Below, piece after piece: positions 19,623-36,361 of a stretch of DNA of 64,000 nt. Below the pieces are notes generated by a model. It ran no database searches. It saw nothing but the letters and a program-made list of their open reading frames with translations, and was not told where the DNA came from. The stretch is from a virus: IMG/VR virus record IMGVR_UViG_3300032070_000613, positions 1-64,000 of that record; one strand, written 5' to 3'. Positions within the stretch are counted from its first letter, which is position 1, and each line of letters starts with the position of its first letter. Both the position numbers and the translations under genes were made by a program.

Positions 19623-19799
19623 ATGGAACGTGTAAATTTTCACCTCACTGATGGGGAGCGTAAAGGTCTGGAGCTGCTGTCGGAGCTCACTGGTATAAAA
19701 AAAGCGGAGCTGATCCGACGTGCGATCGATGAATATATTGAGAGGAAGAAGTGGCAGGGATGTACGGGTCTGGAGAAGTTTCAAGAGGTGCTGGCATGA
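19623..19799 (+). CDS. Ribbon-helix-helix protein (58 aa, not in the ORF track)
   Basis: MERVNFHLTDGERKGLELLSELTGIKKAELIRRAIDEYI...; ATGA overlap with the GT start at 19796. Confidence 0.75.
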   Translation: MERVNFHLTDGERKGLELLSELTGIKKAELIRRAIDEYIERKKWQGCTGLEKFQEVLA

Positions 19800-22700
19800 G
19801 TAAAGATAATCTCCTAGGCCTGAATATAATCGTCGGTGGTAAATCGGAGAAGGAGCTGGAGCGATGTCTCAAAAGCTGTACTCAGGGGGATTTGTTCGAT
19901 GAGATAGTAGTCACGCAGACATGGGAAGATGAGAATGTCCGTGCTGTAATAGAAAAGTATGGGGCGCGTAGAGAGTTTTTCGCCTGGAATGAGAATTTTT
20001 CCGATGCCCGTAATTATTCATTTGATAAGAGTACCACTACCTATATTTTATGGCTGGACAGTGATGACGAGATAAAACCCGCGGAATATCAGAAACTCCT
20101 GGAGCTCAAACCCAAAATTTCCAATTTTGATATAATCCTCATCGATTACGTGTATACCCATGATGAAAAAGACAACCCCGTACTAGTACTCCCCCGAGAG
20201 CGTATAGTCAGAAACTGTGAAAAGATTAAATGGCACGATCCTATCCATGAATATCTGAATATGGATGTCCCTCCGGAAAAGATTTTAAGGACTAAGATTA
20301 GAATCGAGCATTACAGGAGTAAGCCCTACGAACCTAGTAGAAATTTAGATGCTCTACGGAAAGCCTATGATGGCGGTAAATGCTCTCCTCGATTGAAATT
20401 TTATTTTGGAAAAGAGCTATCTGACTGTGGCTACTGGAATGAAGCTATCCCGATATTAGAGAAATACATTGAGGAGGCCGCGGATTTCAGAGATAATATG
20501 ACCGTGGCATGCATACGTTTATCAAAGTTTTACTATGATGGTAAGAATTATAGTGCAGCTAAAATATATGCCATGAAGGGCATCCGTTTCAATAGTATTT
20601 ATGCTGAGAACTACGTGACTCTCGGGACTATTTTTGAGATAGAGAATGATACTGAGTCGGCGGCCAGCTATTATAAAGAGGCTCTCACGAAGAAGCTGGA
20701 AGGCGGGATGTCTCAGATCGTCGATTTTTATGGGTTCATACCCGCGGCGAAACTCGCTCTCCTCTATTTCTCCAAAAAAGACTATGAGGAGTCTCTGAAA
20801 TACTGTGACCGGGCGCTGCAGCATAAGTCTGATAACGTACAGATCCAGGAACTCAAGAAAACGGTATCTATAGAGTTGGAGCGATCTAAAAAAGGGAGCA
20901 CGATACGAGATGAGGATATTTCGAAAATAAAAGAATTTTTTGAAGGTATCAATTTTAAAATGGATGTCCAGAAGAATAATCAGGAGTTCGCGGACATACG
21001 AGTCAGTCGTATTAAAAAACTCGATATAGTGTGGCTCATACCTACACTGGACCTCGACAATCCATCTATACGTATCCGCAGATATAATATCTCAAAAAAG
21101 CTGGAGGAGTCAAAGATATCCAGCAGGATTATTTCAAATTACTATGGTAAAAATGTTTATGAGATGAGGAATGAGGTAGGGGCTGCCTCGGTAGTCATAT
21201 TCACCCAGTATAGTAAATTTGATCTGGAGCTCATACGACATCTGAAGCCTCTCGGGATCAAGATAGTATTTGACCACTGTGAGGCCCTATTCGGATATCC
21301 TTTTGAGGGTGACTGTATGAAAGAGGCTGATCTCATAGTATGCTGCTCTACAAAACTGGAGGAGCTCACTAATAAGCAGGGACTATCGCGTACTGCGGTC
21401 CTGAAGGATGCCGTGGAAGAACGGACTCCTACTAATGAGATGGTATATGATTATCGGTATCCGAGACCTAGGGCCATTTTTTCCGGCATGGGAGGTAATG
21501 GCTTCCTTATTTCAGAATGGCTCAAGGACACTATTGAAAGTGCGGGTTATGATATCGTAATGATGACTGAGTGGGACAACTGTACGGTCCGATGGAACAA
21601 AGACACATGGCCTGATGAAATGATTAAATGTGATGTGGCTCTGTGCCCTCAGCGTGTGGATGTACAGCCCGCGAAGAGTAGTGTGAAAGCTACCACGGCG
21701 ATGGCGCTGGGGATGCCGGTGCTGGCGTCGCCTCTACAGGCGTATAAAGAGGTCATAGAGCATGGGAAAACTGGGTATATCTGTGATACCAAAGATCAAT
21801 GGTATGATGCTCTGATCAAATTAAAGGATGCCAGCCTGCGTAAGGAGATAGGTCTCGCAGCTAAAGAGGCTGTGAAAGGATACTCCCTCCAGAATATAGC
21901 CAAAGAGTGGCAGTCCACTCTGGAAGCTCTCATCAATGATAAATTGAAGTTCCCGGAGCCGGTAGAGGTAGAAAAGGTACCTGACCGTCAGCTGGTGGAT
22001 ATTATCATCGCTAACTATGGCAATGTCGAATATTTGAAGATGTGTGTCAGCTCTATCCTGATGAATACTCTATACCCGTTTCATGTTATCATCTCCGATG
22101 CGGGGAGTGATGAGAAAACCTGGGAGTATCTGCATACTTTAAAGGGGATCACGGTACTAGGTGAGCCAGGTAAACGTATGTCGTTTTCTGAGGCATGTAA
22201 TGCGGGGATCAAAGCATCTGCATCAAAATTCTTCTGTATCATGAATTCTGATGTCATAGTATCTAAGGGATGGCTCACGAATCTCGTAGATAAAATGGAG
22301 CATATAGACAGGCTGGCGGCATGTGGTGTTTTAAGTAACTGCGATAAAAGCTGGCTCCATAGCGTACCGGGTAAACCGGAGCTCCCTACGTATCCTATGA
22401 GGCTCGATAAGGCAGGGATAGAGCTAGTGCCTGGTATGAAGATAGAGACTATCCAGCCTCATGTAGAAGAGCTCTATGATTTCATGCGTAAATCTAATGA
22501 GACCTATAAGGGTAAATTTGTGAGGCAGCCCTGGATAGCGGCCTATGCCATGATTTTTGCCCGGTGTGCTATCGATGAGGTGGGTCTGTTTGATCCTCTG
22601 TATAAAAACGGATGTGAGGACTGGGATCTCTGTCAGCGTCTGTCTCGCTATGGATATGCTATCGGTCAGGCTATAGATGCTTTTGTTTTTCATTTCGGTG

Positions 22701-25105
22701 GGGTGACTAGAGGTAGCTATGAGGAGGAAAATAGGGAGTCTTATAAGAAAGAGGATATGGAGAATCACGTCAAAATGCGTCGGAAATGGGACAAAGAGCG
22801 TGTCGTGATATGGACGGGTCCTGCTTGGGAAAAATGGGACCGTGCTAAAGTAGATGAGGGTATGGCGGGATCAGAGACGTGGGCGGCATATCTGGCGCGG
22901 GAGTTTGTGAAGAAAGGATATCGTACGACTATCTACAATGATCTTCGTACAGATGATAAGACAAAGTCAGTACTGGATCCGGTGCACGATGCGGATGATA
23001 AACTGGTAGGAGAGGTGATTTATAGAGATCATACCAATTTATTAGCGGACATACAGTATGACGTAGTGGATTACTTTATATCGTCCAGATCTCTGGAGCC
23101 TTTAAAGAGTAACGTACATTCTTTGAAAAGCTATGTCATGATACACGACGTCTGGATTTCGGGGGACCCTGCTACGGATATCATGGCATGGCGTATACAG
23201 AAATATGCCTATCTGTCGGAGTGGCACAAACAGTTTCTAATGCAGCATCATAAGATGCCGGAAGATAAAATGTTTCTCACGGCTAATGGGGTAGACAATA
23301 CTTTATATGCGGACGTCGATCAATATCAGAAGAAAAATCAGACGGTATATAGCTCGAGTTTAGATAGGGGGCTGTATCAGTTTCTGAGGATGCTGCCGGA
23401 GATCAGGAAAGCTGTACCTGATTTTAAGGTGATAGTGTGTTATGGTATGTTAAACTGGGAGGAGAGTATAAAGGCTCGGAATGACACTCAGGCTATGGAG
23501 CTGCTCAATAAGATAAAGGCTCTGATGGAGCAGCCGGGTGTGGAGTATAGGGGTAGGGTCAGCAAGAAGGTTTTATCTGGTTTGCAGAAGGAATCCAAGG
23601 TATTCTTATTTCCGTCCTGGTTCTCGGAAACATTCTGTTGTCATCCAGAAAATGAAATATTTACTGAAAACGGGCCTAAGAGGATTGTATCTTTGAACAT
23701 AGTTGATAAGGTACTTACTCATAACAACAGATTTAGGAACATAACCAAGATATTATCAAGGCCGTATTCTGGGGATCTTATTAAGTTTAATGTGCAAAAC
23801 CACAAAGCAGGGACTGGGATGTACACCCCTGAGCATCCGATATTGATTTTAAGAGGAAGTAATGTTTCTAGATTAAGACGTAACAGGAGTTTCATTAAAT
23901 TAGGAAGACGTTCAGACTATTCTCCTGAGAGCGTTAAAAGATTTAACAGAGAGCCAGAGTGGGTTGAAGCAGGAGATGTTATAGCTGGGGATTATGTATG
24001 TATGCCATACTGTGATGATCGTAGCCCAGATGATTGGTTTTATCCTTTGGAGGATATGAAAAAAGTCAATAGAAATTACAAGATAGTAGGAGAGCACATA
24101 ATAAGTAGGGAGTCAAAAATTTTCAAAAGATTACCTGCTAAGATAAAAATGGATCATGACTTTGCGAGATTTCTTGGCTTTTATTTCTCTGAGGGATGCT
24201 TTAGCGGCGGATGCGTTAAATTCTCATTTAACACAAAAGAAGTAGATTATATTAATTTTGTATCATCTTATGTGGAGAGGGCTTTTGGAGTTAAACCTAA
24301 AATAAAAAACAGAGGAAATTGGGTTGAAATATGGTGTTACATGAATTCTATGGGTATTCTTTTGAAAGAGTTGTGTGGACATGAGGCTTCTCAAAAGAAA
24401 GTCCCTTATTTCATGTATCGGCAGGACAAAAGTTTTGTGAGAGAATTTGTGCGAGCTGTGTTTGAAGGTGACGGTCATGAGAACAAAAATGAATTTACAA
24501 TGGTTTTGGCAACAAAAAAAGGAATGGTAGGTCTTAAAATACTGGCAGCTAGTTTAGGTCTTCACCCTAGCTACAGGAATTCTCCACGTTTTGGAAGAGA
24601 CTATTATACAATGGGTATTAGCAAGAAATTATGGAGTGATTTTTTTATAGGGAAAAAAGAGTACGGCTTAAAAGGTACCTATAGGGTCTATTTTGAAAGG
24701 GACTCAAAAATTTTCTATAAAGTTAAAAGTGTTGATAGAGTGCCTTACGTTGGGCTTGTGTATAATTTAGAAGTGGAAGAAGATCAGTCGTATACATCAG
24801 ATTTTATCGCTGTCCATAATTGCTGCACTTCGGTCGAGGCGGGATTGTCTAAAAACCCTATACTCTCCACTGACTTCGCGGGGCTCAAGACTACAGTAGG
24901 GTCTGCGGGGATATTGCTACCTCATGAGGGCATATCTCGTGATTTGGACTATCCTGATACATATAAACGTAGGTTCATTGAGGAGTCTATACGGCTACTC
25001 AAGGATGAAGATTATCGTAATGAGTGGGCTGCCAAGGCCTACAACAAGATGCAGGCCTATAGATGGGATAAGATCGCTGAGGGTTGGATAGCTCAGTTCA
25101 AGTAG
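19796..25105 (+). CDS. Multi-domain glycosyltransferase (GT2-TPR-GT4-GT2-GT4) containing an intein
   Basis: GT2: FSDARN, WLDSDD, IHE; TPR helices; GT-B: AMALGMPVLAS; second GT2: SDAGS, MNSDV, EDWD; final GT-B ETF..TSVEA split by the intein. Confidence 0.85.
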   Translation: MSKDNLLGLNIIVGGKSEKELERCLKSCTQGDLFDEIVVTQTWEDENVRAVIEKYGARREFFAWNENFSDARNYSFDKSTTTYILWLDSDDEIKPAEYQKLLELKPKISNFDIILIDYVYTHDEKDNPVLVLPRERIVRNCEKIKWHDPIHEYLNMDVPPEKILRTKIRIEHYRSKPYEPSRNLDALRKAYDGGKCSPRLKFYFGKELSDCGYWNEAIPILEKYIEEAADFRDNMTVACIRLSKFYYDGKNYSAAKIYAMKGIRFNSIYAENYVTLGTIFEIENDTESAASYYKEALTKKLEGGMSQIVDFYGFIPAAKLALLYFSKKDYEESLKYCDRALQHKSDNVQIQELKKTVSIELERSKKGSTIRDEDISKIKEFFEGINFKMDVQKNNQEFADIRVSRIKKLDIVWLIPTLDLDNPSIRIRRYNISKKLEESKISSRIISNYYGKNVYEMRNEVGAASVVIFTQYSKFDLELIRHLKPLGIKIVFDHCEALFGYPFEGDCMKEADLIVCCSTKLEELTNKQGLSRTAVLKDAVEERTPTNEMVYDYRYPRPRAIFSGMGGNGFLISEWLKDTIESAGYDIVMMTEWDNCTVRWNKDTWPDEMIKCDVALCPQRVDVQPAKSSVKATTAMALGMPVLASPLQAYKEVIEHGKTGYICDTKDQWYDALIKLKDASLRKEIGLAAKEAVKGYSLQNIAKEWQSTLEALINDKLKFPEPVEVEKVPDRQLVDIIIANYGNVEYLKMCVSSILMNTLYPFHVIISDAGSDEKTWEYLHTLKGITVLGEPGKRMSFSEACNAGIKASASKFFCIMNSDVIVSKGWLTNLVDKMEHIDRLAACGVLSNCDKSWLHSVPGKPELPTYPMRLDKAGIELVPGMKIETIQPHVEELYDFMRKSNETYKGKFVRQPWIAAYAMIFARCAIDEVGLFDPLYKNGCEDWDLCQRLSRYGYAIGQAIDAFVFHFGGVTRGSYEEENRESYKKEDMENHVKMRRKWDKERVVIWTGPAWEKWDRAKVDEGMAGSETWAAYLAREFVKKGYRTTIYNDLRTDDKTKSVLDPVHDADDKLVGEVIYRDHTNLLADIQYDVVDYFISSRSLEPLKSNVHSLKSYVMIHDVWISGDPATDIMAWRIQKYAYLSEWHKQFLMQHHKMPEDKMFLTANGVDNTLYADVDQYQKKNQTVYSSSLDRGLYQFLRMLPEIRKAVPDFKVIVCYGMLNWEESIKARNDTQAMELLNKIKALMEQPGVEYRGRVSKKVLSGLQKESKVFLFPSWFSETFCCHPENEIFTENGPKRIVSLNIVDKVLTHNNRFRNITKILSRPYSGDLIKFNVQNHKAGTGMYTPEHPILILRGSNVSRLRRNRSFIKLGRRSDYSPESVKRFNREPEWVEAGDVIAGDYVCMPYCDDRSPDDWFYPLEDMKKVNRNYKIVGEHIISRESKIFKRLPAKIKMDHDFARFLGFYFSEGCFSGGCVKFSFNTKEVDYINFVSSYVERAFGVKPKIKNRGNWVEIWCYMNSMGILLKELCGHEASQKKVPYFMYRQDKSFVREFVRAVFEGDGHENKNEFTMVLATKKGMVGLKILAASLGLHPSYRNSPRFGRDYYTMGISKKLWSDFFIGKKEYGLKGTYRVYFERDSKIFYKVKSVDRVPYVGLVYNLEVEEDQSYTSDFIAVHNCCTSVEAGLSKNPILSTDFAGLKTTVGSAGILLPHEGISRDLDYPDTYKRRFIEESIRLLKDEDYRNEWAAKAYNKMQAYRWDKIAEGWIAQFK
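23636..24820 (+). mobile_element. Intein with LAGLIDADG endonuclease (395 aa)
   Basis: Starts CCHPENEIF, block B TPEHP, FLGFYFSEG and VFEGDG, ends VYNLEV...VHN followed by Cys; splicing restores ETFCCTSVEA. Confidence 0.9.
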
Positions 25106-25161
25106 GGTGTAGAAACTCCTATGGTTTTCAGAGGCCTGGAAGATAGTATCTCCCAGGCCTT

Positions 25162-25177
25162 TAATATTCTCTTAATA
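25162..25177 (+). promoter_or_regulatory. Phage promoter motif TAATATTCTCTTAATA, just after a terminator-like hairpin (~25133-25162)
   Basis: Motif copy. Confidence 0.65.
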
Positions 25178-25544: not shown

Positions 25545-26009
25545 ATGGCAGTAGCGACTCTGACAGTTAAATATTTCGGCACCAACGTCGGGAAAATCTA
25601 TCTATCCGATATAGATAGACGTCATCAGCTCGGTGGGGCCCCCGAGGGTGGGAACTACAAAGCTGGTCAGGATGAGTTTATGACATGGGGAGAAGTCAAA
25701 GTCCTGCAGATCACAGATGATGTGCTCTATAGCAGACTCAATGGCGTCCTCAACTATTTCTCGACAGAAGCCAGCTCGATCATTTTCAAGAGCAACGGTG
25801 CACCGCTGACGCTCGTCGATGCTACAGACACTGTAGCGAATGAAGTACCTCGCGGTGACTATGCGAATACCGGTCTGTTTGATGACAGATTCATCAACAA
25901 CGTCCTGGCTGGAAACTACAGCACAGGCGTCAAAGGTACTCTCGGGACAGGGTATACGGGATACTATGTCGCAGGCGACACCGGTTACAATTACGGAAAT
26001 GTGCTCTAA
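25545..26009 (+). CDS. Hypothetical virion protein with C-terminal GxTG motifs
   Basis: AAGGAGG RBS; preceded by promoter motif 25455-25470; followed by a terminator. Confidence 0.6.
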   Translation: MAVATLTVKYFGTNVGKIYLSDIDRRHQLGGAPEGGNYKAGQDEFMTWGEVKVLQITDDVLYSRLNGVLNYFSTEASSIIFKSNGAPLTLVDATDTVANEVPRGDYANTGLFDDRFINNVLAGNYSTGVKGTLGTGYTGYYVAGDTGYNYGNVL

Positions 26010-26435: not shown

Positions 26436-26450
26436 GAAGGACGACACACC

Positions 26451-26663
26451 ATGGATATTTTTCAAGGCAGCATAGGGACCATATCCCCGGCTATGGGCAA
26501 CTACGACCTCCAGGTCTATATAAATATAGATAAACAGACGGCAGGGGTGACTGGGATAGGTGAGACGGGTACCGGGACTCTGGAGCCTGTGAAATGGGAT
26601 ATAGGAGTGACGGGGATCCAGAGCGCTAATTTCACCAACACTAAACATGGGTTTTTCGCATGA
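26451..26663 (+). CDS. Small protein with GVTG motifs
   Basis: GVTGIGETG...GVTGIQ; coupled to the next gene. Confidence 0.55.
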   Translation: MDIFQGSIGTISPAMGNYDLQVYINIDKQTAGVTGIGETGTGTLEPVKWDIGVTGIQSANFTNTKHGFFA

Positions 26664-27133
26664 TGAAAGTATCTGTAGTAGCGGCTATGAAGCAGAAGGC
26701 CGCTGAAAATTTCAAGCTAAAAGACGTCTCTTTTATAGATTTCGAATCTATCGACATGGAAGAGATGAGTAAGGTCATTACTGAGGCCGATCTCCAGGAA
26801 TTTTCGGCTACTGTAGAAGTCTCAGCCAACCTCCTCATAACCTACGAAGGAGTCCCTCCAGATAGCTACAGAGTCCTCAATAGCATGCTGCAGGACTGGG
26901 TGGATGATCATGATGAGGATTTGAAAAAGATCATTAATCCTAAACTGATACCTTTTTTAAAAGAGCACTATAAAGATGTCGATGTCAGTGACCTGAAAGA
27001 GGATTTTGATGACTATATCTGGGAGGACCAGGTAGATTATATGCCGGAGATTAATGAGGATAAAAAAGAGATACGTTTTATGGTGGAGCTGGTCCTAGAG
27101 GTGGAAGAATCCGAGGACGGTGACGAAGACTAA
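26660..27133 (+). CDS. Acidic hypothetical protein
   Basis: ATGA-coupled ORF. Confidence 0.6.
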   Translation: MMKVSVVAAMKQKAAENFKLKDVSFIDFESIDMEEMSKVITEADLQEFSATVEVSANLLITYEGVPPDSYRVLNSMLQDWVDDHDEDLKKIINPKLIPFLKEHYKDVDVSDLKEDFDDYIWEDQVDYMPEINEDKKEIRFMVELVLEVEESEDGDED

Positions 27134-27164
27134 AGAATGGCGTTTCTGTTAGGTGATAGGTGGA

Positions 27165-27202
27165 CGATAGGACCGGTCTGAAAAGATCGGTCCTATTGTT
27201 TT
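27165..27202. terminator. Terminator between convergent units
   Basis: GATAGGACCGGTC-tgaaaa-GATCGGTCCTATT-GTTTT. Confidence 0.7.
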
Positions 27203-27204
27203 AT

Positions 27205-28470: not shown

Positions 28471-28692
28471 GGCTTTGGGATCATGGCAATGGATAGCGTC
28501 ACATTCGTTGATCCTGGCAAAATCAGCAAAGGATTTTATTTTTTGCTCTATTTTTTCAGGTTCACTCTCATACATGACTGTTTCACAGATATATCGGGCG
28601 GTAGCTCCTTCAGGAGCATAAACATATTGATCTGAATTCTTCTCTATGATCACTGCATCCCGGAGTTCTCTTATTTGATTTTTTGTATACAT
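28471..28692 (-). pseudogene. MYTK-family paralogue 3; 3' end interrupted by the IS
   Basis: MYTKNQIRELRD start; reads into the IS right end after DPKA. Confidence 0.65.
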
Positions 28693-28696
28693 AAAT

Positions 28697-29014
28697 TTAA
28701 AATTGACGTAAACGCCATTTGGCTACTGTTTCTAGAGCATCATTGATGTGGAGCGGGGCTATTGAAATGTCTCCAAAAAGCAAATCATAAGCTAGTTTAT
28801 AATTGGTTTCGTCATTTGAGTGTGGTTCATAGGATAGTTTTATTCTGGCATAGGTTTTCATGCTATTTTCTATTTTAGCTGAATCACTCTCATATATTAT
28901 GTTGTCGAGAATATGCTGGGCGGTTTTACCAAATATAGAGCCTATATAAAGGTCCGAATTCTGCTCTTTAAGCATCATGTCCCGGAGTTCTTTTATTTGA
29001 TTTTTTGTGTACAT
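28697..29014 (-). CDS. MYTK-family paralogue 2
   Basis: Ends AYDLLFGDISIAPLHIND...WRL. Confidence 0.75.
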   Translation of the reverse strand: MYTKNQIKELRDMMLKEQNSDLYIGSIFGKTAQHILDNIIYESDSAKIENSMKTYARIKLSYEPHSNDETNYKLAYDLLFGDISIAPLHINDALETVAKWRLRQF

Positions 29015-29346
29015 AAATTATCTACCGGGGAGTTAGGATTTTTAAGCCTCCATATAGAGATAATTTCAAAAATGTCATTAAGATGTAGCGGCACTATGGA
29101 TATGTCCCCAAATAACAAATTATATGCTAGCACATAGTCTATTTCTTCAGGGGAAACATATATATCTTTTACGCGTTCAGCAGAAGAAGTAATACTGTTT
29201 TTAAAGTCCTCCGGTTCGTTGTAAATCATGAGAGAATTATAGATATAATCAAAAGTAGCCCACCCAGAGCTGAAGTCTGAAGGATATTTGCTTCTCTTTT
29301 CAATCAAGAGCTCTCTCAGATTACATAGATCTTTTTTTGTGTACAT
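28993..29346 (-). CDS. MYTK-family paralogue 1
   Basis: GGAGGTG RBS; AYNLLFGDISIVPLHLND...WRL. Confidence 0.75.
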   Translation of the reverse strand: MYTKKDLCNLRELLIEKRSKYPSDFSSGWATFDYIYNSLMIYNEPEDFKNSITSSAERVKDIYVSPEEIDYVLAYNLLFGDISIVPLHLNDIFEIISIWRLKNPNSPVDNLCTQKIK

Positions 29347-29363
29347 ATTATCACCTCCACTAT

Positions 29364-29392
29364 AATATACTATTTTAAAACGAATAAATCAA
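29364..29392 (-). promoter_or_regulatory. sigma70-like promoter
   Basis: TTGATT-N17-TATATT upstream of the MYTK array. Confidence 0.7.
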
Positions 29393-29399
29393 GGAATAG

Positions 29400-29415
29400 T
29401 AATATCCTTTTAATA
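29400..29415 (+). promoter_or_regulatory. Phage promoter motif TAATATCCTTTTAATA
   Basis: Motif copy, divergent from the sigma70-like promoter. Confidence 0.6.
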
Positions 29416-29462
29416 CCGCGTGCTTATTGGTGGTACTATATCTATGGATAGGGGTTTTTTCT

Positions 29463-29990
29463 ATGGGCATAAAAAAAGATGTGTTTCTTAGGGATTTGAC
29501 CAGGGTAGTTATAGCGCAGCAGCAGGCTGTACAGAGAGAATGGGCGGAGGTGGTAAGAGAGGTGGGGCCTGATGTAATAGGCGCAGTCAATCTGGTGTGG
29601 GGAAATCGACAGAGATTCCCACATATAGGACGTGATAGATTTTCTATGGACAGGGTTAAAGAGCTTCTTAGTTTTGCATCAGCTACTATTGAAAGAACAG
29701 AACAACTCCCTGAATATATACTGCGTTATCTTAAATCAAAATATGCCAGTTTTTTCCAAATTACTGCTACGGATGAAAGAAATATTAAGCAATTATTAGC
29801 TCAAAATGCTGGAACAGAAAACATCATAAAAGCTTTGTATGAGTATTTAAATAAGACACTTATAAAAAGAGAATATGATAAAATTTATGTGACTGATGTA
29901 CATAAGAGACGCTTGGCCTCTCAAAAAAATCCTGCTTTCGTTCATAGCGTCGTTTTAAAATACCTGGACTCTCTAGATAGAGGATTCTAA
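29463..29990 (+). CDS. Hypothetical protein
   Basis: Likely start MGIKK; KYAS and RLAS motifs. Confidence 0.55.
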   Translation: MGIKKDVFLRDLTRVVIAQQQAVQREWAEVVREVGPDVIGAVNLVWGNRQRFPHIGRDRFSMDRVKELLSFASATIERTEQLPEYILRYLKSKYASFFQITATDERNIKQLLAQNAGTENIIKALYEYLNKTLIKREYDKIYVTDVHKRRLASQKNPAFVHSVVLKYLDSLDRGF

Positions 29991-29992
29991 CC

Positions 29993-30889
29993 ATGGCAAT
30001 AGCATTTTATCCCGGACAATCGCTCGGGCAAAATGACCTCAAAATATCTATACGGGATAGTTCGGCAGTACTTATAGACCCGTATTACATACGCTATTCC
30101 CTTTTCGATAATACCACGGGAGTGGAGGTCCTCATAGGCCCTCCCGATCGTATACCCGCTACCACGGGCGTCGGACAGTATTACGTCGACGCTACACTCC
30201 CTCTGGACTCCAACATAGGGGACTGGGTGGTCCGCTGGAACTTCAGGGAGACCGCCACCTCGCCGCTAGTGCAGGTGGCCCAGGAGTTCGCGGTGGTGAA
30301 AATAGATGTCGTGACGAATATCACTAACAGCACTACCGGGGATTTACTGGTGAGAAGGTTGAGGATCTTGTTGAGGGACGGAAATCCGGATCGCAATTAT
30401 CGCTTCAGACCTCCTGCACATGAAAAGTTTTTACAGGCACAGGCGCAGGTGTTCGGATACATATGGGAAGATGAAGAACTTTTTGAATTTATCCTTATGT
30501 CTATTGATACATTTAATTCAGCCCCTCCCGTGACAGGAATAGATTTGAATAACATGCCGGATAGATGGCGCACTACGGTTCTCATGAGGGCCGCGGGGAT
30601 GGCGTGCGGTGCCCTTTCTGTCAATTGGATCGCCGATGAGTTCGACTACAGTATTAGTGGAGTCTCCCTCAGCATAGAAAAATCTTCCAAATACGAATCG
30701 ATGAAAAGAAACTTTTATGAGGAAGCCGACAAGTCGCAAGAGCTTGCTAAACGGTCAATAAAAATCGTCCTTGGCCTTCGTCAACCCCGATTTTCTGTGG
30801 GAATTTCGAGTGCTTTAGGCCCGTTTAGTAAACCAGGCACCCAGTCAAGACGGAACTGGTGCGGAGGAGGTAGAGGTGGCTGGTCTTGA
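29993..30889 (+). CDS. Putative head-tail adaptor/neck protein with N-terminal Ig-like domain
   Basis: Synteny; RLRILLRD, EFDYSISGVSL adaptor-like region. Confidence 0.5.
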   Translation: MAIAFYPGQSLGQNDLKISIRDSSAVLIDPYYIRYSLFDNTTGVEVLIGPPDRIPATTGVGQYYVDATLPLDSNIGDWVVRWNFRETATSPLVQVAQEFAVVKIDVVTNITNSTTGDLLVRRLRILLRDGNPDRNYRFRPPAHEKFLQAQAQVFGYIWEDEELFEFILMSIDTFNSAPPVTGIDLNNMPDRWRTTVLMRAAGMACGALSVNWIADEFDYSISGVSLSIEKSSKYESMKRNFYEEADKSQELAKRSIKIVLGLRQPRFSVGISSALGPFSKPGTQSRRNWCGGGRGGWS

Positions 30890-30934
30890 AAAATTTTGTC
30901 TATGAAATTAATTTATTTTTAGGAATATTTTAAA

Positions 30935-31639
30935 ATGAATAATAATATAATAGATCTTTACAATGATATAAAAAATTGCTCTGTATGCCCGTTGATGAAT
31001 AGAGAAAAATCTTTGAGAAAGCACGAAGCAGTAGATTTTCATTGTGATGTGTTTGTAATTTCTCAAGCGTTAGCTGAAAATCAACTCAGGCGTAGTGGAG
31101 TCAATTTTTTTGGAGTAAACGGGCGCGCAGGAAATACAGGAAAAAATCTCGAGAAGTTTTTGAATGAATTTGGTAGAACCATATATCCTTTAATAGATAT
31201 ACAGCTTTCAGATAATATAATCATTCCTAAACGCCAAAATGGTTTGTTGTCCGTTTATAATACAGAGGTAACTCAATGCTATCCAGGAAAAGACGCCAAA
31301 GGAGATAGAAAGCCAAATAAAGAAGAGATCCTAAATTGTATAAATAAATCTTTTTTGATAAAAGAAATAGAAATAATAAAACCAAAATTGTTATTATTGA
31401 TGGGGAGATTGAGCCGGGATAGTTTTTTTAAATATATACTGAAAGAGGATTATCCTGAATCTTTATCTGAGCATATTGAGAATATATCTAATACTAAAAT
31501 ACCTTTAAAAGAAATAGGCGGTTTAAATATTTCAGTATTGCCAATTCAACACGCTTCAGGAGCTAATCCAGAATTTTATAAAATGTTGAAAAATGATAGA
31601 TTGATAGGTCTAATTAAAGATGTTTTAAAATCGGAGTGA
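30935..31639 (+). CDS. Uracil-DNA glycosylase superfamily protein (family 4/5-like, Fe-S)
   Basis: CSVCPL, TEVTQCYP..DRKP..EEILNC, EIEIIKPKLLLLMG, HASG. Confidence 0.75.
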   Translation: MNNNIIDLYNDIKNCSVCPLMNREKSLRKHEAVDFHCDVFVISQALAENQLRRSGVNFFGVNGRAGNTGKNLEKFLNEFGRTIYPLIDIQLSDNIIIPKRQNGLLSVYNTEVTQCYPGKDAKGDRKPNKEEILNCINKSFLIKEIEIIKPKLLLLMGRLSRDSFFKYILKEDYPESLSEHIENISNTKIPLKEIGGLNISVLPIQHASGANPEFYKMLKNDRLIGLIKDVLKSE

Positions 31640-31646
31640 TTTCAAT

Positions 31647-31940
31647 ATGTCCCTCGAAGTCCAATATTTCGGTATCACCGGTATCGTCGGTCCTAGTAAT
31701 AATAGAGAGCTATACCTCCTCACCGGCCCTTCCACAGGCGTGGATGGCAGGTATGACGTGGCCGTGGACCCTATAGACGGCCCCGCTCAGAAATATGGAG
31801 TCGATTTCGGTGTGACCTCCTATGGGTATACCGCGGCAGTGGTCCTCGATATAGCGGGCTCTGATATAAAAGACGTCCAGAATAATTACTCTCATGGAGT
31901 GACCGGAGTCCTCAATTTGAGAGTGATCTACAATTATTAA
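31647..31940 (+). CDS. Small virion protein with GITG/GVTG motifs
   Basis: ORF in structural operon. Confidence 0.55.
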   Translation: MSLEVQYFGITGIVGPSNNRELYLLTGPSTGVDGRYDVAVDPIDGPAQKYGVDFGVTSYGYTAAVVLDIAGSDIKDVQNNYSHGVTGVLNLRVIYNY

Positions 31941-31961
31941 ATAATATCTAAGGTTTTTATT

Positions 31962-32540
31962 ATGGTATCTACCGTCTCAACGACAAAAGAAGCTTTTATA
32001 GATGTGTTTCAATATAGCATCAAGAAGTCCAACCAGTTCACCTGCATAGGATGGATCAATCAGCCTCAATTCCCGGACGACAATCCCATCGTATTGCTCG
32101 CTGTGTCTGATGTGGCTGGGAATGTGACAGGAGTAGACTCCGCGCTCAGGTATGAGATTGTAAAAGACGGCGTCGATTATAGGCTGCAGTTTTCTGGCTC
32201 TAAATCTAAAAAAATAAACAAAACAGTGGGGATCTCTTTAGGTGATACGAACTGGCATTTTTTGAGCTATGTGTGTACCGGTGATGGTACTATGTTCTAC
32301 TATGTGGATGGGGTATCAGTACCGTCTGAGGATGGGCTGAGTCCTGACAGTGTACTCTACTCTATTGCCTGGTCACGTAGTGCGAGGCAGGGTGGGGGTC
32401 AGGTGTGGGTGCCCTATATCTATAAAAAAGGGCAGGCAGTATCTATTTATAATTGGAGATTCGCATCAGGGATCCAGATACATCAGGGATGGCTGCAGCA
32501 GCTGATGGTAGTGGATAAAGCTGTTCTAGAGGCCGCATAA
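31962..32540 (+). CDS. LamG/concanavalin-like domain protein
   Basis: FTCIGWI...DTNWHFLSY....YYVDG. Confidence 0.55.
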   Translation: MVSTVSTTKEAFIDVFQYSIKKSNQFTCIGWINQPQFPDDNPIVLLAVSDVAGNVTGVDSALRYEIVKDGVDYRLQFSGSKSKKINKTVGISLGDTNWHFLSYVCTGDGTMFYYVDGVSVPSEDGLSPDSVLYSIAWSRSARQGGGQVWVPYIYKKGQAVSIYNWRFASGIQIHQGWLQQLMVVDKAVLEAA

Positions 32541-34985
32541 ATGAGACAGATAGTATACGTAAATTCTTTATGGGGTGACAATGCCTTTTCAGGGGATCTT
32601 CCCACCCCTGTTAAGACTTTGTCTCAGGCTATAGCTCTTGTATATGAGGGTGGTACGATAGTACTGCAGACAGGTGATGCGGGGACTTCTTACGGGTCGG
32701 CTATTTTTACAAAGAATGTGACGGTTAAAGCCGCCTATGGGGCTGTTCCCTATGTAGGTACTCTCACGTTTAGTAATGCTCAGGGACTTTTTGAGGGTCT
32801 GAATTTTGACGGTTTGAAATTTGGTGGTATCTCTCAGGGGATAGTCGTAGATAATCCTGATTTGGGGTCGGTGATCGTAAGAGATTGCAGGTTCACGGAT
32901 GTAGAGACGGCGATCGATCTGAAAAGAGTACAGTATGTCAGTGTACATAGAAATAATTTTTTGGGTCATAAAGCGGGTATCAAAGTAGATGTCGCTCAGG
33001 AAGTTTGTCTCAGTTCGAATATTTTTAATGGAGGGTCTCGGTCTGTAGAAATAAGTACCGTACAGAGGCTGGATCTTTGGCACAATACCATATACGGGGC
33101 GTCGACTATAGTCGCGGGCACTTCTCCCAATCAGAATTTGAGAATAATTTATGTGACTCTCACCTCTTTTGATATTCTCTATAAAAGGATACAGCTGCCG
33201 GGGTTCGCGGTACAGGGGATGAGCGGTCAATATGAGGTCTCAGTAAACTCCGTCAATGGTCCGGCGTTCCAGTATAGTGTCGATTATACGGTACAGGCTT
33301 TTGGATCTATAGTGAGTTGGGATGGGCTGGCGCTCCAGCAGCAGCTGTCCGCGGGGGATATGATACGGATCATGTATTCTGAGGACCAGGATCCGGGTGG
33401 TGGGGACGCTATACGTGTCATGAATGTGGGGGATGAAAATAGCCGTATAGATTCTAACAGTATCACGGGTAGGATATCGGATATAGATATAGGAGTGTTC
33501 TTTAATACTCCCTTAAAAATAGGCTATAATAATTTTTACAAAAATGTGAAATGGTGGGACGGGGCCACGCCTACGGGGGCTACCGGGCTGAATAATATAA
33601 ATGGAGACCCATTATATCGAGATCCGGTGGGTAGTGATTTTCATCTACAGTATTTAGGGATATCGGGGACCTCTCCTAACATCGATGCGGCTGATCCTGG
33701 CAGATGGATAGACATTTATTCTGAAATGGGTGTTACGAGTATAGGGGGTCATTATACGGCTCCTGTAGCTGGTATCCGCAGTAATGTAGCTCCTTTTGAT
33801 AGGGACATCGATTATGATTTTTATAATCGAGGTGTCACGGGTATAGTAGGCACTACAGGCGATATAGGGGCTCTGGAGTTCAATCAGCATGAGACTGCCC
33901 TAGGTAACTATGTGGCGGAGAGAGGATACGATATAGCGCAGCCTGGCACGGCTACAGGTCCATACGCCACACTCGATCGTGGGTATGCTCGGGCGGGAGA
34001 CTCGGATCTTTTTGTTTCCACCAATTTTGTACCGTATCAGATAGGGGTCACGGGTATATATGCGGTCCCTATCGCGGGTCCGTCCTACGGTCGATATCAC
34101 AGTAAAAATATTGTTTTGAGTGGTAGTGATCTCAGAGTAGGTCATACTACCGGTAATGATATCACCTATGTGTATTCTTCTTATCCGGCTTATGAGACAG
34201 GGCTCGTATATGTAGGACCGGATTCTGGAGCAGGAGTCACGGGGACTTTTGGTAATCCCTATCGGACTATTACGGAGGCGCTGACTGCAGGGAGTTCATA
34301 TGTTTTAGTGAGACCGGGATTTTATCCGTCTTTCCAGGGGCAGACGGGAGTGAGTTTGGCGGGTGTAGAGGAGCTCAGTACTATTTCTTTAGGGTCTCAG
34401 CTCTACAGTAGTTTTGTTACCGGGTCCTGGACGGGTGTAGGGACCTATACGACGAGTAGTTCTACGCTCACTTTATCGGATGCCGTTGATATGCGGAGTG
34501 AGTTCAGTTTTGATCGTGGTATTGATCTCAAGTGTACTACCAGCTCTACTAGTGATACTTTATGTGTAGGTATTACCAATGATACGGACAGTGTATATGC
34601 GGTCCTTGATAGAGTCACTAAAAACAGTGTCATAGGCTATGGAGTGACCGGCCCTATTCATTATGATGTCTACAAAGCATATACGGGGCCTGCTGCATTT
34701 TCTGATGTGAGGGTGCATATCACTTTAGAGGGGGCTGATTTCAGGGTGACGCTCCGTAATCCTTATATAAACAGGACCTATAGCGGCACACTGGATTCAT
34801 ACTATACTGATCCATGGCGATTATTTTGTAGGACGCAGGGTGTGGGTGTCACTGGTATAGTGAGTGATATTTATTTGATGTCGGATCTTTTTCATGGTAT
34901 CACCGGTGTTTTAGACGCACAGATCAGTAGGAAAGTTTTTGGAGTGTTAGGGGTCACAGGTTTGAACAATACTAGGACTATATAA
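32541..34985 (+). CDS. Parallel beta-helix virion appendage protein
   Basis: Beta-helix repeats (NNF, SNIF, HNTIY), G..GNPYRTI-type motifs, many GVTG. Confidence 0.6.
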   Translation: MRQIVYVNSLWGDNAFSGDLPTPVKTLSQAIALVYEGGTIVLQTGDAGTSYGSAIFTKNVTVKAAYGAVPYVGTLTFSNAQGLFEGLNFDGLKFGGISQGIVVDNPDLGSVIVRDCRFTDVETAIDLKRVQYVSVHRNNFLGHKAGIKVDVAQEVCLSSNIFNGGSRSVEISTVQRLDLWHNTIYGASTIVAGTSPNQNLRIIYVTLTSFDILYKRIQLPGFAVQGMSGQYEVSVNSVNGPAFQYSVDYTVQAFGSIVSWDGLALQQQLSAGDMIRIMYSEDQDPGGGDAIRVMNVGDENSRIDSNSITGRISDIDIGVFFNTPLKIGYNNFYKNVKWWDGATPTGATGLNNINGDPLYRDPVGSDFHLQYLGISGTSPNIDAADPGRWIDIYSEMGVTSIGGHYTAPVAGIRSNVAPFDRDIDYDFYNRGVTGIVGTTGDIGALEFNQHETALGNYVAERGYDIAQPGTATGPYATLDRGYARAGDSDLFVSTNFVPYQIGVTGIYAVPIAGPSYGRYHSKNIVLSGSDLRVGHTTGNDITYVYSSYPAYETGLVYVGPDSGAGVTGTFGNPYRTITEALTAGSSYVLVRPGFYPSFQGQTGVSLAGVEELSTISLGSQLYSSFVTGSWTGVGTYTTSSSTLTLSDAVDMRSEFSFDRGIDLKCTTSSTSDTLCVGITNDTDSVYAVLDRVTKNSVIGYGVTGPIHYDVYKAYTGPAAFSDVRVHITLEGADFRVTLRNPYINRTYSGTLDSYYTDPWRLFCRTQGVGVTGIVSDIYLMSDLFHGITGVLDAQISRKVFGVLGVTGLNNTRTI

Positions 34986-36361
34986 TGGCACGGCCACATA
35001 ATTTTCTCGACAACTATGGGCGACCTGACTTCAAACTACCCTATCGGTGGAATGATGACACGCCTCTGAAGATGCCGCTAGGGCCTAAGAGTGTCCAGGC
35101 TACCAGTCCGTATCTCATAGGGGTGATAGATATCCGCTGGGACAATCCGACTATTTATGCCGAGCATAATGGGCTGCAGGTGCTGGGGGTGAATATCTAT
35201 CGGGCATATGATAGTCCTGAGTCTACGTATACTCAAATCAATCCCAGTCCGATAGGTGCCCTTTATTATAGGGATCAGACACGGGAGGTTTTGGCGTCCG
35301 CGGAGGATCCTGTATCTGGTGGGAGTTTCATAGCGGGCACGAATGCCACGGGAGACTGGATTATCCATACCTATCACAAACCGATTATTATACCTGGTAC
35401 GAATGGAAAGATAGCGGAGCACCCGAAGCATGTGGTAGTGCAGATAAAGCCCACTGCGGTGGATTCGTTTCAGACGGTGCCCGCGTGGAGGGTGGTGGGT
35501 GAAACTGGTGAAGTATTTTTAATAAATCGAAAAGTCTACAATAACATCACCAATAGATTAGATGATCCGATACTCCCTATATTATCTCAGGGTGGGGAGA
35601 TCAGGATATCGTATACGTATATTGATGGGTGGATACAGACTGACATCAACAGAAAAATTTATTATAAAGTCACGACGGTGGCTCTTGATCCGGAGTCGTC
35701 GACTCTTATAGAGACTCCTCTCAATGAGGTGGAGGCTGTCAGTTTATATGACATGGAGCGTATAGATTATATCTGGGCGGAGGCTATACGCCGGAACCGG
35801 TGGATACTCGAGCAGGCCGGGGAGCGGGTGAAAGTTTTCATTCGTAAATGGGCTGGAGAGAAATGTCCGTGTTTTGATGAGCAGTATGGGCAGGGGAAGA
35901 ATGATTGTACCTTATGTTTTGGTACCGGAATAACATCCGGTTTCGAAGGACCCTATCCAATTATTATCGCCCCTCCAGAGGCTGAAAAAACGGTACAGTT
36001 ATTAGACATGGGTTTACATGTGAACTACGACTGGAATTCGTGGACCTCGGCGTATCCTCTCCTCAACGACCGTGATTTTATCGTACGTCAGAATAACGAT
36101 AGATTTTCTATAGCTCATGTGAATTCGCAGGGGGCCCGCGGTGCTATTTTTCAGCAGCATTTTATGTTGGCACCTTTGGATCAGCAGGATATACGTTATA
36201 AGGTGCCTATTAATGGCGGCCTTACAGTGCCCGCGGCGTGGAATGCGTACAGGACCGGTAAACCCACGGACGCCAGCCCGACTATACCTGATAAACCTGA
36301 GATACCGGAGCAGTATCAATTGAAAGGAAGAACTGTCAGTTTCGAGTCGATAGTATATTGA
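34985..36361 (+). CDS. Putative neck/head-closure protein (FN3-like + CPC..CxxC)
   Basis: GVNIYRA, YYKVTTV, GERVKVF..CPC..CTLCFGTG. Confidence 0.5.
   Translation: MARPHNFLDNYGRPDFKLPYRWNDDTPLKMPLGPKSVQATSPYLIGVIDIRWDNPTIYAEHNGLQVLGVNIYRAYDSPESTYTQINPSPIGALYYRDQTREVLASAEDPVSGGSFIAGTNATGDWIIHTYHKPIIIPGTNGKIAEHPKHVVVQIKPTAVDSFQTVPAWRVVGETGEVFLINRKVYNNITNRLDDPILPILSQGGEIRISYTYIDGWIQTDINRKIYYKVTTVALDPESSTLIETPLNEVEAVSLYDMERIDYIWAEAIRRNRWILEQAGERVKVFIRKWAGEKCPCFDEQYGQGKNDCTLCFGTGITSGFEGPYPIIIAPPEAEKTVQLLDMGLHVNYDWNSWTSAYPLLNDRDFIVRQNNDRFSIAHVNSQGARGAIFQQHFMLAPLDQQDIRYKVPINGGLTVPAAWNAYRTGKPTDASPTIPDKPEIPEQYQLKGRTVSFESIVY

What the first reader, a model, noticed from the sequence alone, without database searches (positions are those of the whole stretch)
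19796..36361. Putative virion O-glycosylation system: five-module glycosyltransferase plus a G-[VI]-T-G motif scattered through structural proteins
Seen: a late-promoter-motif-driven GT2-TPR-GT4-GT2-GT4 protein is followed by genes rich in GxTG: 25545 (GYTG, GDTG), 26451 (GVTG x2, GETG), 31647 (GITG, GVTG) and 32541 (GVTG x6, GITG, GATG, GTTG, GQTG). Related xVTG/GETG sites occur in 31962, 34985 and the 59536 ORF. The motif is dispersed across unrelated folds with varied codons, so it is not a tandem repeat. Known: GT2-TPR enzymes glycosylate proteins, Thr in the GPTG-type repeats of spore BclA is glycosylated, and some actinobacteriophages glycosylate virions with their own GTs. Inference: GxTG is a sequon; the TPR-GT2 module primes Thr and the other three GT domains extend a glycan, shielding appendages or aiding adhesion.
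Basis: partly seen in the sequence, partly recalled or inferred. Interest (0 to 1): 0.8.

Follow-up and report, generated by a model that had tools for sequence, protein, structure and literature searches.

The report
Huge-phage protein-glycosylating enzyme and GxTG motif
A very large uncultured phage carries, among its late structural genes, a four-enzyme sugar-adding protein. Its first part is a clear relative of the Clostridioides difficile enzyme that sugars Gly-x-Thr-Gly repeats of spore collagen. The same four-residue word is kept far above chance in the phage's collagen-like fibres and several neighbouring virion proteins, so the phage probably sugar-coats its own appendages, though no chemistry has been done.

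Summary
GxTG is truly enriched in ORFs 26451, 31647 and 32541, marginal in 25545, and at chance in 31962, 34985 and 59536.

New evidence:
- The GT2-TPR module is 31% identical (E 2e-44) to C. difficile SgtA, which O-GlcNAcylates Thr/Ser in GxTG peptides of BclA3.
- 49 of its 80 closest bacterial relatives have a GxTG collagen gene within 8 kb, mostly directly adjacent, against 0 of 50 generic GT2 loci.
- The GT is conserved and syntenic in seven sister phage records. It follows the same promoter-like word as the sheath gene.
- GxTG sites are conserved across orthologues with a free x and T/S exchange. They lie in predicted loops, turn over between lineages, and are absent from one orthologue clade.
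- Beyond the window, the phage has true (GxTGxx)n collagen fibres with 57 sites in one protein.

Verdict: a phage-borne, fused version of the SgtA-BclA3 system. The collagen fibres are the likely main substrates. Isolated GxTG sites are plausible but unproven sequons.

This scan reached the same reading earlier on other phage DNA (e1-5653447 and others). No chemistry exists.

The parts
19569..19584 (+). Promoter-like word TAATAATCTCTTAATA upstream of the RHH-GT gene pair. Further copies lie at 25162, 25455, 37157, 41586 and 42134 (the last before the sheath gene), plus 1580 and 12550.
   Evidence: 9 matches at up to 2 mismatches against 0.12 expected from shuffles; 8 are on the + strand in intergenic positions. 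'Late' is inferred from its presence before structural genes.
19623..19799 (+). 58-aa ribbon-helix-helix (CopG-type) protein. Its stop overlaps the GT start codon (ATGA).
   Evidence: Sequence; Pfam RHH_1 at 24.5 bits (cut-off 20.5) and RHH_3.
19796..20980 (+). Module 1 of the glycosyltransferase: a GT-A (GT2) domain followed by TPR repeats. It is SgtA-like and is the proposed priming protein O-glycosyltransferase.
   Evidence: 31% identity over 324 aa to C. difficile SgtA, E 2e-44. PDB sequence hits to SunS and GmaR. AF2 pLDDT 91.4, with best folds SunS/ThuS at E 2e-17. The WLDSDD motif is invariant in 24 relatives.
20981..21949 (+). Module 2: a GT-B type (Glycos_transf_1 / Glyco_trans_1_4) domain.
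   Evidence: Pfam PF13692 at 1.9e-13 and PF00534 at 1.7e-12, at aa 607-720 of the ORF.
21950..22801 (+). Module 3: the second GT2 (GT-A) domain.
   Evidence: Pfam PF00535, best stretch at aa 751-876; the genome search PF00535 at 72.2 bits.
22802..23635 (+). Module 4, N-extein: the N-terminal half of the last GT4 domain, up to the first Glu of its E-x7-E motif.
   Evidence: Pfam Glyco_transf_4 at aa 1040-1182; alignment with intein-free orthologues.
23636..24820 (+). Intein of about 395 aa with a LAGLIDADG homing-endonuclease domain, inserted inside the E-x7-E motif. It starts with Cys, ends with His-Asn, and the +1 residue is Cys. The start is ambiguous by one codon (23636 or 23639).
   Evidence: Pfam Intein_splicing and LAGLIDADG_3. 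The block is absent from orthologues in G003, G004, G006 and G008, where the flanks join seamlessly.
24821..25105 (+). Module 4, C-extein: the rest of the last GT4 domain.
   Evidence: Alignment with intein-free orthologues.
25545..26009 (+). 154-aa conserved protein with C-terminal GYTG and GDTG. Candidate acceptor.
   Evidence: marginal enrichment. The last GxTG is conserved in all six genomes compared, and a second site is present in 3 of the 5 relatives.
26451..26663 (+). 70-aa conserved protein with GVTG-i-GETG and GVTG. The spacing is not collagen-like. Candidate acceptor.
   Evidence: 3 sites against 0.21 expected. Two positions are conserved with a varying x in all four genomes that hold an orthologue.
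31647..31940 (+). 97-aa conserved protein with an N-terminal GITG and a C-terminal GVTG. Candidate acceptor.
   Evidence: 2 sites against 0.10 expected. The sites are conserved in close relatives and shifted in G006 and G008.
32541..34985 (+). 814-aa putative receptor-binding spike: an N-terminal right-handed beta-helix, a low-confidence linker holding GVTGIVGTTGDIG, and a C-terminal ConA-like lectin/CBM domain. It carries ten GxTG sites. Candidate acceptor.
   Evidence: 37 homologues. Five sites are conserved in the 20 close homologues. In the AF2 model (pLDDT 75) every site falls in a loop, a turn or the linker.

Best explanation
This is a phage-encoded protein O-glycosylation system of the SgtA-BclA3 type, built into the late structural module of a huge phage (a 141-kb fragment, about 30% of the genome by CheckV).

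One soluble polypeptide carries four glycosyltransferase domains. The N-terminal GT2-TPR module is a homologue of C. difficile SgtA. It most likely transfers the first sugar, probably a HexNAc from a host UDP-sugar, to the Thr (sometimes Ser) of G-x-T-G. The following GT-B, GT2 and GT4 domains probably build a short oligosaccharide on it. The last domain becomes active only after its intein splices out.

The main acceptors are probably the phage's collagen-like fibres of the (G-x-T-G-x-x)n type, which lie outside the window. Likely secondary acceptors are the isolated, loop-exposed GxTG sites in the small proteins 25545, 26451 and 31647 and in the lectin-tipped spike 32541.

Shown: homology, architecture, synteny, motif enrichment and conservation, and the family-wide gene linkage to GxT collagens. 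Inferred: the actual transfer, the sugar, the glycan extension, the use of isolated sites, and the biological role (fibre stabilisation, protease or immune shielding, or adhesion).
For: 1. SgtA homology. The C. difficile sgtA-bclA3 locus was identified by reference: the ORF holding the published BclA3 peptides SML7 and SML8 has 122 GxTG, and the gene directly upstream is 358 aa. The phage module aligns with that SgtA at 31% identity over 324 aa, across both the GT-A and TPR parts, E 2e-44.

2. SgtA chemistry. SgtA adds beta-O-GlcNAc to Thr, and also to Ser, in peptides such as DGATGLIGPDGAGADGA (PMC7157674).

3. Fold. The AF2 model has pLDDT 91.4. Its best PDB matches are the peptide glycosyltransferases SunS and ThuS over the whole length (E 2e-17), well ahead of other GT-A enzymes. 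PDB sequence hits are SunS (1.5e-8) and GmaR (7.5e-8). The DxD motif is invariant.

4. Gene linkage in bacteria. 49 of the 80 closest bacterial loci hold an ORF with at least 6 GxTG within 8 kb, and most of these ORFs are directly adjacent. Among full-length GT2-TPR relatives the figure is 15 of 29. Among loci matching only the GT2 domain it is 0 of 50. Fisher P is 9e-15 and 1e-8 respectively.

5. Gene linkage in phages. 16 of 72 viral contigs outside this clade show the same pairing.

6. Conservation of the GT. It is syntenic in seven sister records. It has no TM helix. It sits behind the same promoter-like word as the sheath gene.

7. Motif in the 32541 family. GxTG is 8.5 times expectation. 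G.T[^G], GT.G, G.T.G, G.AG and G.NG are not enriched, and GxSG is 1.9 times expectation. Sites are conserved with a free x and T/S exchange, gained and lost between lineages, and absent from a whole orthologue clade, so the fold does not need them. They lie in predicted loops or turns.

8. Collagen fibres. The genome holds true collagen-like proteins with 57, 13, 10, 6 and 6 GxTG sites. Thr makes up 41% of Y positions in their GXY runs. In sister G006 a 1546-aa collagen protein with 180 GxTG lies 4.2 kb downstream of the GT in the same gene cluster.
Against: - There is no chemical evidence of any kind.
- All relatives have both the GT and the motif, so co-occurrence cannot be tested within the clade.
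- G006 keeps the GT while its 32541 orthologue has lost the sites (1 GxTG in 1131 aa). Glycosylating that protein is therefore at most optional.
- A Gly-rich tetrapeptide is expected in turns anyway. Sites 431 and 437 form four GXY triplets and may be a short structural triple helix.
- The rest of the proteome shows no depletion of GxTG, so there is no sign of selection against off-target sites.
- In this genome the collagen genes lie 57-84 kb from the GT.
- No NDP-sugar synthesis genes occur in the 141 kb held.
- The SgtA peptide assays did not test whether the flanking glycines are needed.
Confidence: 0.55

Rival explanations
1. The enzyme glycosylates only the collagen-like fibres. The isolated GxTG sites in 25545, 26451, 31647 and 32541 are not sequons. 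They would be turn or mini-collagen elements, or leftovers of exchange with fibre genes.
For: - All isolated sites lie in turns, loops or a linker.
- Sites 431-443 of 32541 and its C-terminal tail are short GXY runs.
- P0042 and P0028 carry short GxTG-rich insertions in loops.
- G006 lost the sites in its 32541 orthologue while keeping the GT and its collagens.
- The bacterial precedent concerns collagen repeats.
Against: - The enrichment is specific to Thr. GxAG, GxNG, GxDG and GxVG are at or below expectation, and the frame-shifted words are not enriched.
- GVTG-i-GETG in 26451 has period 5, which is not a collagen register.
- SgtA accepts short single-site peptides, so no triple helix is needed.
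- The small GxTG proteins sit directly downstream of the GT in all the genomes compared.
Confidence: 0.25
2. The multi-GT protein builds or alters a non-protein glycan, such as a host envelope polysaccharide, a teichoic acid or a capsule, for example for superinfection exclusion. GxTG would then be a purely structural idiom of this clade's fibrous proteins.
For: - Sources annotate relatives as 'glycosyltransferase involved in cell wall biosynthesis'.
- GT2 and GT4 domains are typical of polysaccharide synthesis.
- There is no chemistry for the protein-acceptor reading.
Against: - The GT has no membrane segment.
- The first module is much closer to SgtA (E 2e-44) and to the SunS/ThuS peptide GTs than to polysaccharide GTs.
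- The family-specific linkage to collagen genes is 49 of 80 against 0 of 50.
- The gene has a conserved place in the structural module, behind the promoter-like word shared with the sheath gene.
Confidence: 0.12
3. The enzyme glycosylates phage DNA (hypermodified bases), as many phage GTs do.
For: Phage GTs are often DNA-modifying, as stated in the review text of PMC12619734.
Against: - The TPR-bearing SgtA/SunS-type module is a protein or peptide GT.
- The gene lies in the structural module, not the replication module.
- No base-hypermodification genes were noted near it.
Confidence: 0.03

Closest known systems
Clostridioides difficile SgtA with its substrate BclA3 (exosporium collagen-like glycoprotein; PMC7157674)
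   Same: - A GT-A domain followed by TPR repeats, about 360 aa, soluble, with a DxD motif.
- 31% identity to the phage module over both domains.
- The acceptor Thr/Ser sits in G-x-T/S-G.
- The gene is linked to Thr-rich collagen-like proteins.
   Different: - The phage module is fused to three more GT domains in one 1.4-kb-plus polypeptide, and an intein interrupts that polypeptide.
- It is encoded by a virus, in its virion module.
- The candidate acceptors include non-collagen proteins with isolated sites.
- The collagen repeat is (G-[ILV]-T-G-x-Q)-like rather than GPT.
- Nothing has been tested biochemically.
Bacillus anthracis/cereus BclA collagen-like region with O-glycosylated Thr (from general knowledge, not tested here)
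   Same: GxTG-containing collagen triplets that carry an O-linked oligosaccharide on a surface filament.
   Different: It is a spore nap filament, not a virion fibre. I did not compare the enzymes here.
Glycocin S-glycosyltransferases SunS and ThuS (PDB 7msn, 7msp, 7msk) and Listeria GmaR (PDB 22ao, 7x9r)
   Same: They are the best structural matches to the N-terminal module (E 2e-17), with a GT-A domain plus a helical-repeat domain that acts on peptides or proteins.
   Different: - Sequence similarity is far weaker than to SgtA (1.5e-8 against 2e-44).
- SunS and ThuS glycosylate Cys of bacteriocin precursors.
- GmaR modifies flagellin and doubles as an anti-repressor.
Mycobacteriophage virion O-glycosylation (Freeman et al. 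2023, PMC10527164, as cited in PMC12619734)
   Same: Phage-encoded GTs next to structural genes modify the phage's own virion proteins.
   Different: In those phages the glycans sit on the C-termini of capsid and tail-tube subunits. The enzymes are separate, and no GxTG or collagen context is described. That paper was not read here; I saw only its citation.

Membership tests
SgtA-type GT2-TPR protein O-glycosyltransferases | An N-terminal GT-A (GT2) catalytic domain directly followed by TPR repeats, soluble, about 360 aa | tested here: met
   Pfam GT2 and TPR hits. The AF2 model has a GT-A sheet at aa 7-172 followed by 11 helices, pLDDT 91.4. No 19-residue window reaches a Kyte-Doolittle value above 1.44.
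SgtA-type GT2-TPR protein O-glycosyltransferases | Sequence homology to characterised SgtA over both domains | tested here: met
   SgtA was located as the 358-aa gene directly upstream of the ORF holding the published BclA3 peptides. BLASTP gives 31% identity over 324 aa, E 2e-44.
SgtA-type GT2-TPR protein O-glycosyltransferases | Metal-binding DxD motif (SgtA depends on Mn2+) | tested here: met
   W86, D88, D90 and D91 are invariant in the 24-sequence alignment A2. The Mn2+ dependence is from PMC7157674.
SgtA-type GT2-TPR protein O-glycosyltransferases | Genomic association with Thr-rich (G-x-T) collagen-like proteins | tested here: met
   For the family: 49 of 80 and 15 of 29 loci, against 0 of 50 controls. 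For this clade: collagens are present in every long record. One lies 4.2 kb from the GT in G006, but they lie 57-84 kb away in this genome.
SgtA-type GT2-TPR protein O-glycosyltransferases | Transfer of beta-O-GlcNAc from UDP-GlcNAc to Thr/Ser of the acceptor | not testable with these tools
   This needs an enzyme assay or glycopeptide MS.
Glycocin S-glycosyltransferases (SunS/ThuS) | Fold similarity over the whole length | tested here: met
   Foldseek E 2e-17, 380-398 aligned columns, TM 0.55-0.60.
Glycocin S-glycosyltransferases (SunS/ThuS) | An adjacent glycocin precursor peptide and export/immunity genes, with a Cys acceptor | not tested
   No dedicated search was made. The neighbours are conserved virion-module proteins, and the sequence is much closer to SgtA.
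Class 1 intein with LAGLIDADG homing endonuclease | Cys at position 1, a TxxH block, a C-terminal His-Asn, a Cys at +1, an endonuclease domain, and absence from orthologues with seamless extein junctions | tested here: met
   The sequence runs CCHPEN ... TPEH ... AVHN|CC. Pfam gives Intein_splicing and LAGLIDADG_3. Four orthologues lack the block, and the spliced sequence restores E-x7-E.
Bacterial/phage collagen-like proteins (long GXY triple helix) | Long uninterrupted runs of Gly-X-Y triplets | tested here: not met
   The proteins inside the window reach at most 4 triplets (32541 aa 431-443), and 26451 has period-5 spacing. The feature is met only by proteins outside the window, such as G000 98364-100064.

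The most novel reading that the evidence does not exclude
GxTG is a true, evolvable O-glycosylation sequon. A single four-GT polyprotein writes it not only on collagen fibres but also on loops of folded receptor-binding and accessory virion proteins of huge phages. Sites are gained and lost between lineages, much like glycan shields of animal viruses. The last glycan-building step is gated by intein splicing. Sister phages carry a homologous intein in the DxD site of the priming domain instead.
Probability: 0.3. Interest if true: 0.75.

Novelty: new variant of a known kind. Interest (0 to 1): 0.6.

Why it matters
Virion glycosylation by phage-encoded enzymes has been shown experimentally only in actinobacteriophages. 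If huge environmental phages, and the other phage lineages with the same enzyme-collagen pairing, sugar-coat their fibres with an SgtA-type enzyme, then glycosylated phage appendages would be common. That would bear on host recognition, particle stability, resistance to proteases, and antibody recognition.

The short GxTG sequon and a soluble priming enzyme that is active on peptides would also make a simple, testable tool for site-directed O-glycosylation. The inteins in catalytic motifs of a glycosyltransferase add an unusual extein class.

Tried and rejected
- **No close records in the phage collection.** Megablast and tblastn of the GT and of 32541 against the GenBank phage collection found no match.
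- **Single-protein scans failed.** Scans of viral contigs with one protein found nothing. Alignment-based scans were needed.
- The long contigs of the motif-poor orthologues P0031-P0041 could therefore not be fetched. G006 and G008 from IMG/VR served instead.
- **Co-occurrence test.** It has no power, because all seven relatives with enough sequence have the GT. G007 is a 25-kb fragment whose upstream side is missing.
- **DNA-level motif rejected.** Codons vary at every position.
- **Off-target depletion.** GxTG in the rest of the proteome is at expectation in the six genomes compared, for example 21 observed vs 15.0 expected in G000 and 20 vs 20.8 in G006.
- **Sugar-nucleotide genes.** None were found in the 141 kb held (PF01370 and PF00483). 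Only about 30% of the genome is held, so this says little.
- **Finding C. difficile SgtA.** A Romboutsia-seeded scan did not reach it. Cluster names carried no organism. The locus was finally found through a family-level genome search plus the published BclA3 peptides.
- **Missing control.** I made no random baseline for how often GxTG-rich ORFs occur in viral contigs. The 16 of 72 figure is compared only with the bacterial GT2-only control.


Full report
**Setting.** The window is the first 64 kb of a 141,095-bp IMG/VR virus record. CheckV rates the record about 30% complete, which implies a phage of several hundred kb. Nearly all genes are on the + strand. The region of the finding lies in a structural module with a head protease relative, a tail sheath at 42252-45212 and a virion structural protein at 34985. 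Earlier notes of this scan call the record a giant sediment phage.

**The observation.**
- Against each protein's own composition, three ORFs are significantly enriched: 26451 (3 vs 0.21), 31647 (2 vs 0.10) and 32541 (10 vs 1.03, P 1.5e-7).
- 25545 is marginal. 34985, 59536 and the sheath are at chance. 31962 has no site.
- Codons differ at every motif position, so the signal is in the protein.
- ORF 19796-25105 has the stated GT2-TPR-GT4-GT2-GT4 order. The true start is ATG 19796, which overlaps the stop of a 58-aa ribbon-helix-helix gene by ATGA.
It sits inside the E-x7-E motif of the last GT4 domain. Orthologues in G003, G004, G006 and G008 lack it, and the spliced product restores the motif.
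- The 'late promoter motif' exists as a recurring word. TAATAATCTCTTAATA gives 9 hits against 0.12 expected. Copies lie before the RHH-GT pair, 25194, 25545, the sheath gene and others. That it is 'late' is an inference from the genes it precedes.

**What lies beyond the window.** The same record holds true collagen-like proteins built of (G-x-T-G-x-x)n. The protein at 98364-100064 has 57 GxTG. Those at 104172, 82590, 97009 and 97711 have 13, 10, 6 and 6. In the GXY runs of six related genomes, Thr fills 41% of Y positions and Gln 34%. The in-window motif is therefore the same word that these phages use in their fibres.

**The enzyme.**
- By sequence, the N-terminal 395 aa hit the peptide and protein glycosyltransferases SunS and GmaR in the PDB.
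- The module folds with high confidence (pLDDT 91.4) into a GT-A domain plus a helical-repeat domain. Its best structural matches are SunS and ThuS over the whole length (E 2e-17), far ahead of polysaccharide GT-A enzymes.
- Its sequence relatives are stand-alone TPR-GT2 proteins of 355-375 aa from Clostridia and Bacilli.
- I located the characterised member by reference. In a 4.11-Mb genome of the Romboutsia family group, one ORF holds both published BclA3 peptides (residues 1-15 and 46-60 of PMC7157674) and 122 GxTG. The gene directly upstream is 358 aa, as reported for SgtA.
- The phage module aligns with that SgtA at 31% identity over 324 residues spanning both domains, E 2e-44.
- According to PMC7157674, SgtA adds beta-O-GlcNAc from UDP-GlcNAc to Thr, and also to Ser, in peptides with single GATG, GPTG or GASG sites. 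It needs Mn2+. The WLDSDD motif is invariant in the phage module and 23 relatives.
- The whole GT has no membrane segment.

**Family-wide linkage.**
- Of the 80 bacterial loci closest to the phage module, 49 have an ORF with at least 6 GxTG within 8 kb. Most of these ORFs are directly downstream on the same strand, as in sgtA-bclA3.
- In a second set, 15 of 29 full-length GT2-TPR relatives have such a neighbour. None of 50 loci that match only the GT2 domain has one. Fisher P is 9e-15 and 1e-8.
- Among 72 viral contigs outside this clade that encode a relative, 16 have a GxTG-rich collagen ORF within 10 kb, and some are directly adjacent. I made no random viral baseline.

**Conservation in sister phages.**
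- Seven related IMG/VR records encode the GT at 52-81% identity in the same place of the structural module. The same small genes follow it: orthologues of 25545, 26136, 26451 and 26660.
- The form of the GT varies. It carries the intein in G000 and G001, is intein-free in G003, G004, G006 and G008, is split into two ORFs in G005, and is inverted in G004.
- In G002 a homologous intein (22% identity, E 5e-28) sits at the DxD motif of the priming domain.
- In G006 a 1546-aa collagen protein with 180 GxTG lies 4.2 kb downstream of the GT. This genome has a TnpB insertion in that slot.

**The motif in non-collagen proteins.**
- The 32541 family has 37 full-length homologues.
- In the 20 closer ones, GxTG occurs 155 times against 18.3 expected, which is 8.5-fold.
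- Control words are not enriched: G.T[^G] 0.71, GT.G 0.76, G.T.G 0.87, G.AG 0.25 and G.NG 0.15. G.SG is 1.9-fold.
- Five sites (346, 431, 437, 786, 804) are kept in 18-20 of these 20 homologues. The x position varies freely and Thr sometimes becomes Ser. Other sites come and go between lineages.
- Eight homologues (P0031-P0041, with the G006 orthologue as a further member of that clade) have essentially none. The most distant homologue, P0042, again has 12, at different positions. The fold therefore does not need the motif.
- The AF2 model (pLDDT 75) shows an N-terminal beta-helix, a low-confidence linker at 348-483 and C-terminal beta-sandwich domains. The last domain has a ConA-like lectin/CBM fold. 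Every GxTG falls in a loop, a hairpin turn, the linker or the C-terminal tail.
- Sites 431-443 (GVTGIVGTTGDIG) form four GXY triplets and could be a short structural triple helix.
- The small proteins 25545, 26451 and 31647 keep their GxTG positions across phages of 36-87% identity, again with a free x. In 26451 the two adjacent units are spaced by five residues, which is not a collagen register.

**Interpretation.** The simplest reading that covers all this is a phage version of SgtA-BclA3.
- A soluble, late-expressed enzyme primes Thr in G-x-T-G with its first module. The three following GT domains probably extend the glycan.
- The collagen fibres are the safest candidate substrates, by direct analogy.
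- The isolated sites are plausible substrates. SgtA accepts short single-site peptides, the sites are Thr/Ser-specific and loop-located, and their gain and loss looks like sequon turnover. This remains an inference.

Points against or left open:
- No chemistry has been done.
- No co-occurrence contrast is available inside the clade.
- G006 keeps the GT after losing the sites in one protein.
- GxTG is not depleted elsewhere in the proteome.
- No sugar-nucleotide genes occur in the part of the genome held, so host UDP-sugars are assumed.

**Comparison and novelty.**
- The enzyme passes every membership feature of the SgtA type that can be tested in silico.
- It differs from SgtA in four ways: it is viral, it is fused to three more GT domains, an intein interrupts it, and it is associated with isolated sites in folded virion proteins.
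- Phage virion glycosylation has been demonstrated for mycobacteriophages (Freeman et al. 2023, cited in PMC12619734). There the context is different: the glycans sit on the C-termini of capsid and tail-tube proteins.
- Literature searches found no paper describing SgtA-like enzymes with collagen fibres in phages. That library is incomplete.
- Earlier agents of this scan reached the same reading on other phage DNA, including what looks like a sister huge phage (e1-5653447). This is therefore not the scan's first sighting.
- I class it as a new variant of a known kind, with moderate to high interest.

Noticed in passing
window 23636-24820: A 395-aa class-1 intein with a LAGLIDADG endonuclease sits inside the E-x7-E motif of a GT4 glycosyltransferase domain. 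A library search for inteins in glycosyltransferases of phages found no report.
   Followed up: partly
L013:97-5358 (G002, sister phage): The orthologous GT carries a homologous intein (22% identity, E 5e-28) at a different site, immediately before the DSDD (DxD) motif of the priming GT2 domain. The same enzyme family thus has related inteins in two catalytic motifs.
   Followed up: partly
window 27315-28454: A TnpB (IS605 OrfB / Cas12f-like) gene is inserted between the conserved genes 26660 and 29993. It has no orthologue at this place in the five sister genomes compared. G006 has a 1546-aa collagen-like gene in that slot.
   Followed up: partly
window 19623-19799: A 58-aa ribbon-helix-helix (CopG-type) protein is translationally coupled (ATGA overlap) to the glycosyltransferase gene. 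It may be a regulator of the operon.
   Followed up: no
window 30935-31639: A uracil-DNA-glycosylase superfamily protein (Pfam UDG, 1.3e-9) lies in the middle of the structural module. It is absent from the five sister genomes compared.
   Followed up: no
window 1580, 12550, 19569, 25162, 25455, 37157, 41586, 42134: The promoter-like word TAATAATCTCTTAATA recurs before structural-module genes (9 hits at up to 2 mismatches against 0.12 expected).
   Followed up: partly
window 32541-34985 and 31962-32540: The GxTG-rich 814-aa protein ends in a ConA-like lectin/CBM fold and starts with a pectate-lyase-type beta-helix. The upstream 192-aa protein has a Laminin_G_3/ConA-like domain. They are probably carbohydrate-binding host-recognition proteins.
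   Followed up: partly
G004 27127-31248 and G005 107022-111745 (sister records): The GT gene is inverted relative to its neighbours in G004 and split into two ORFs (565 and 1264 aa) in G005. Stand-alone proteins of about 555 aa that cover the N-terminal part occur on other metagenomic contigs.
   Followed up: no
G000 59536-70644 (starts in the window): A 3702-aa ORF is conserved in G003, G006 and G008 at 34-49% identity. Its GxTG count is at chance. I did not examine its function.
   Followed up: no
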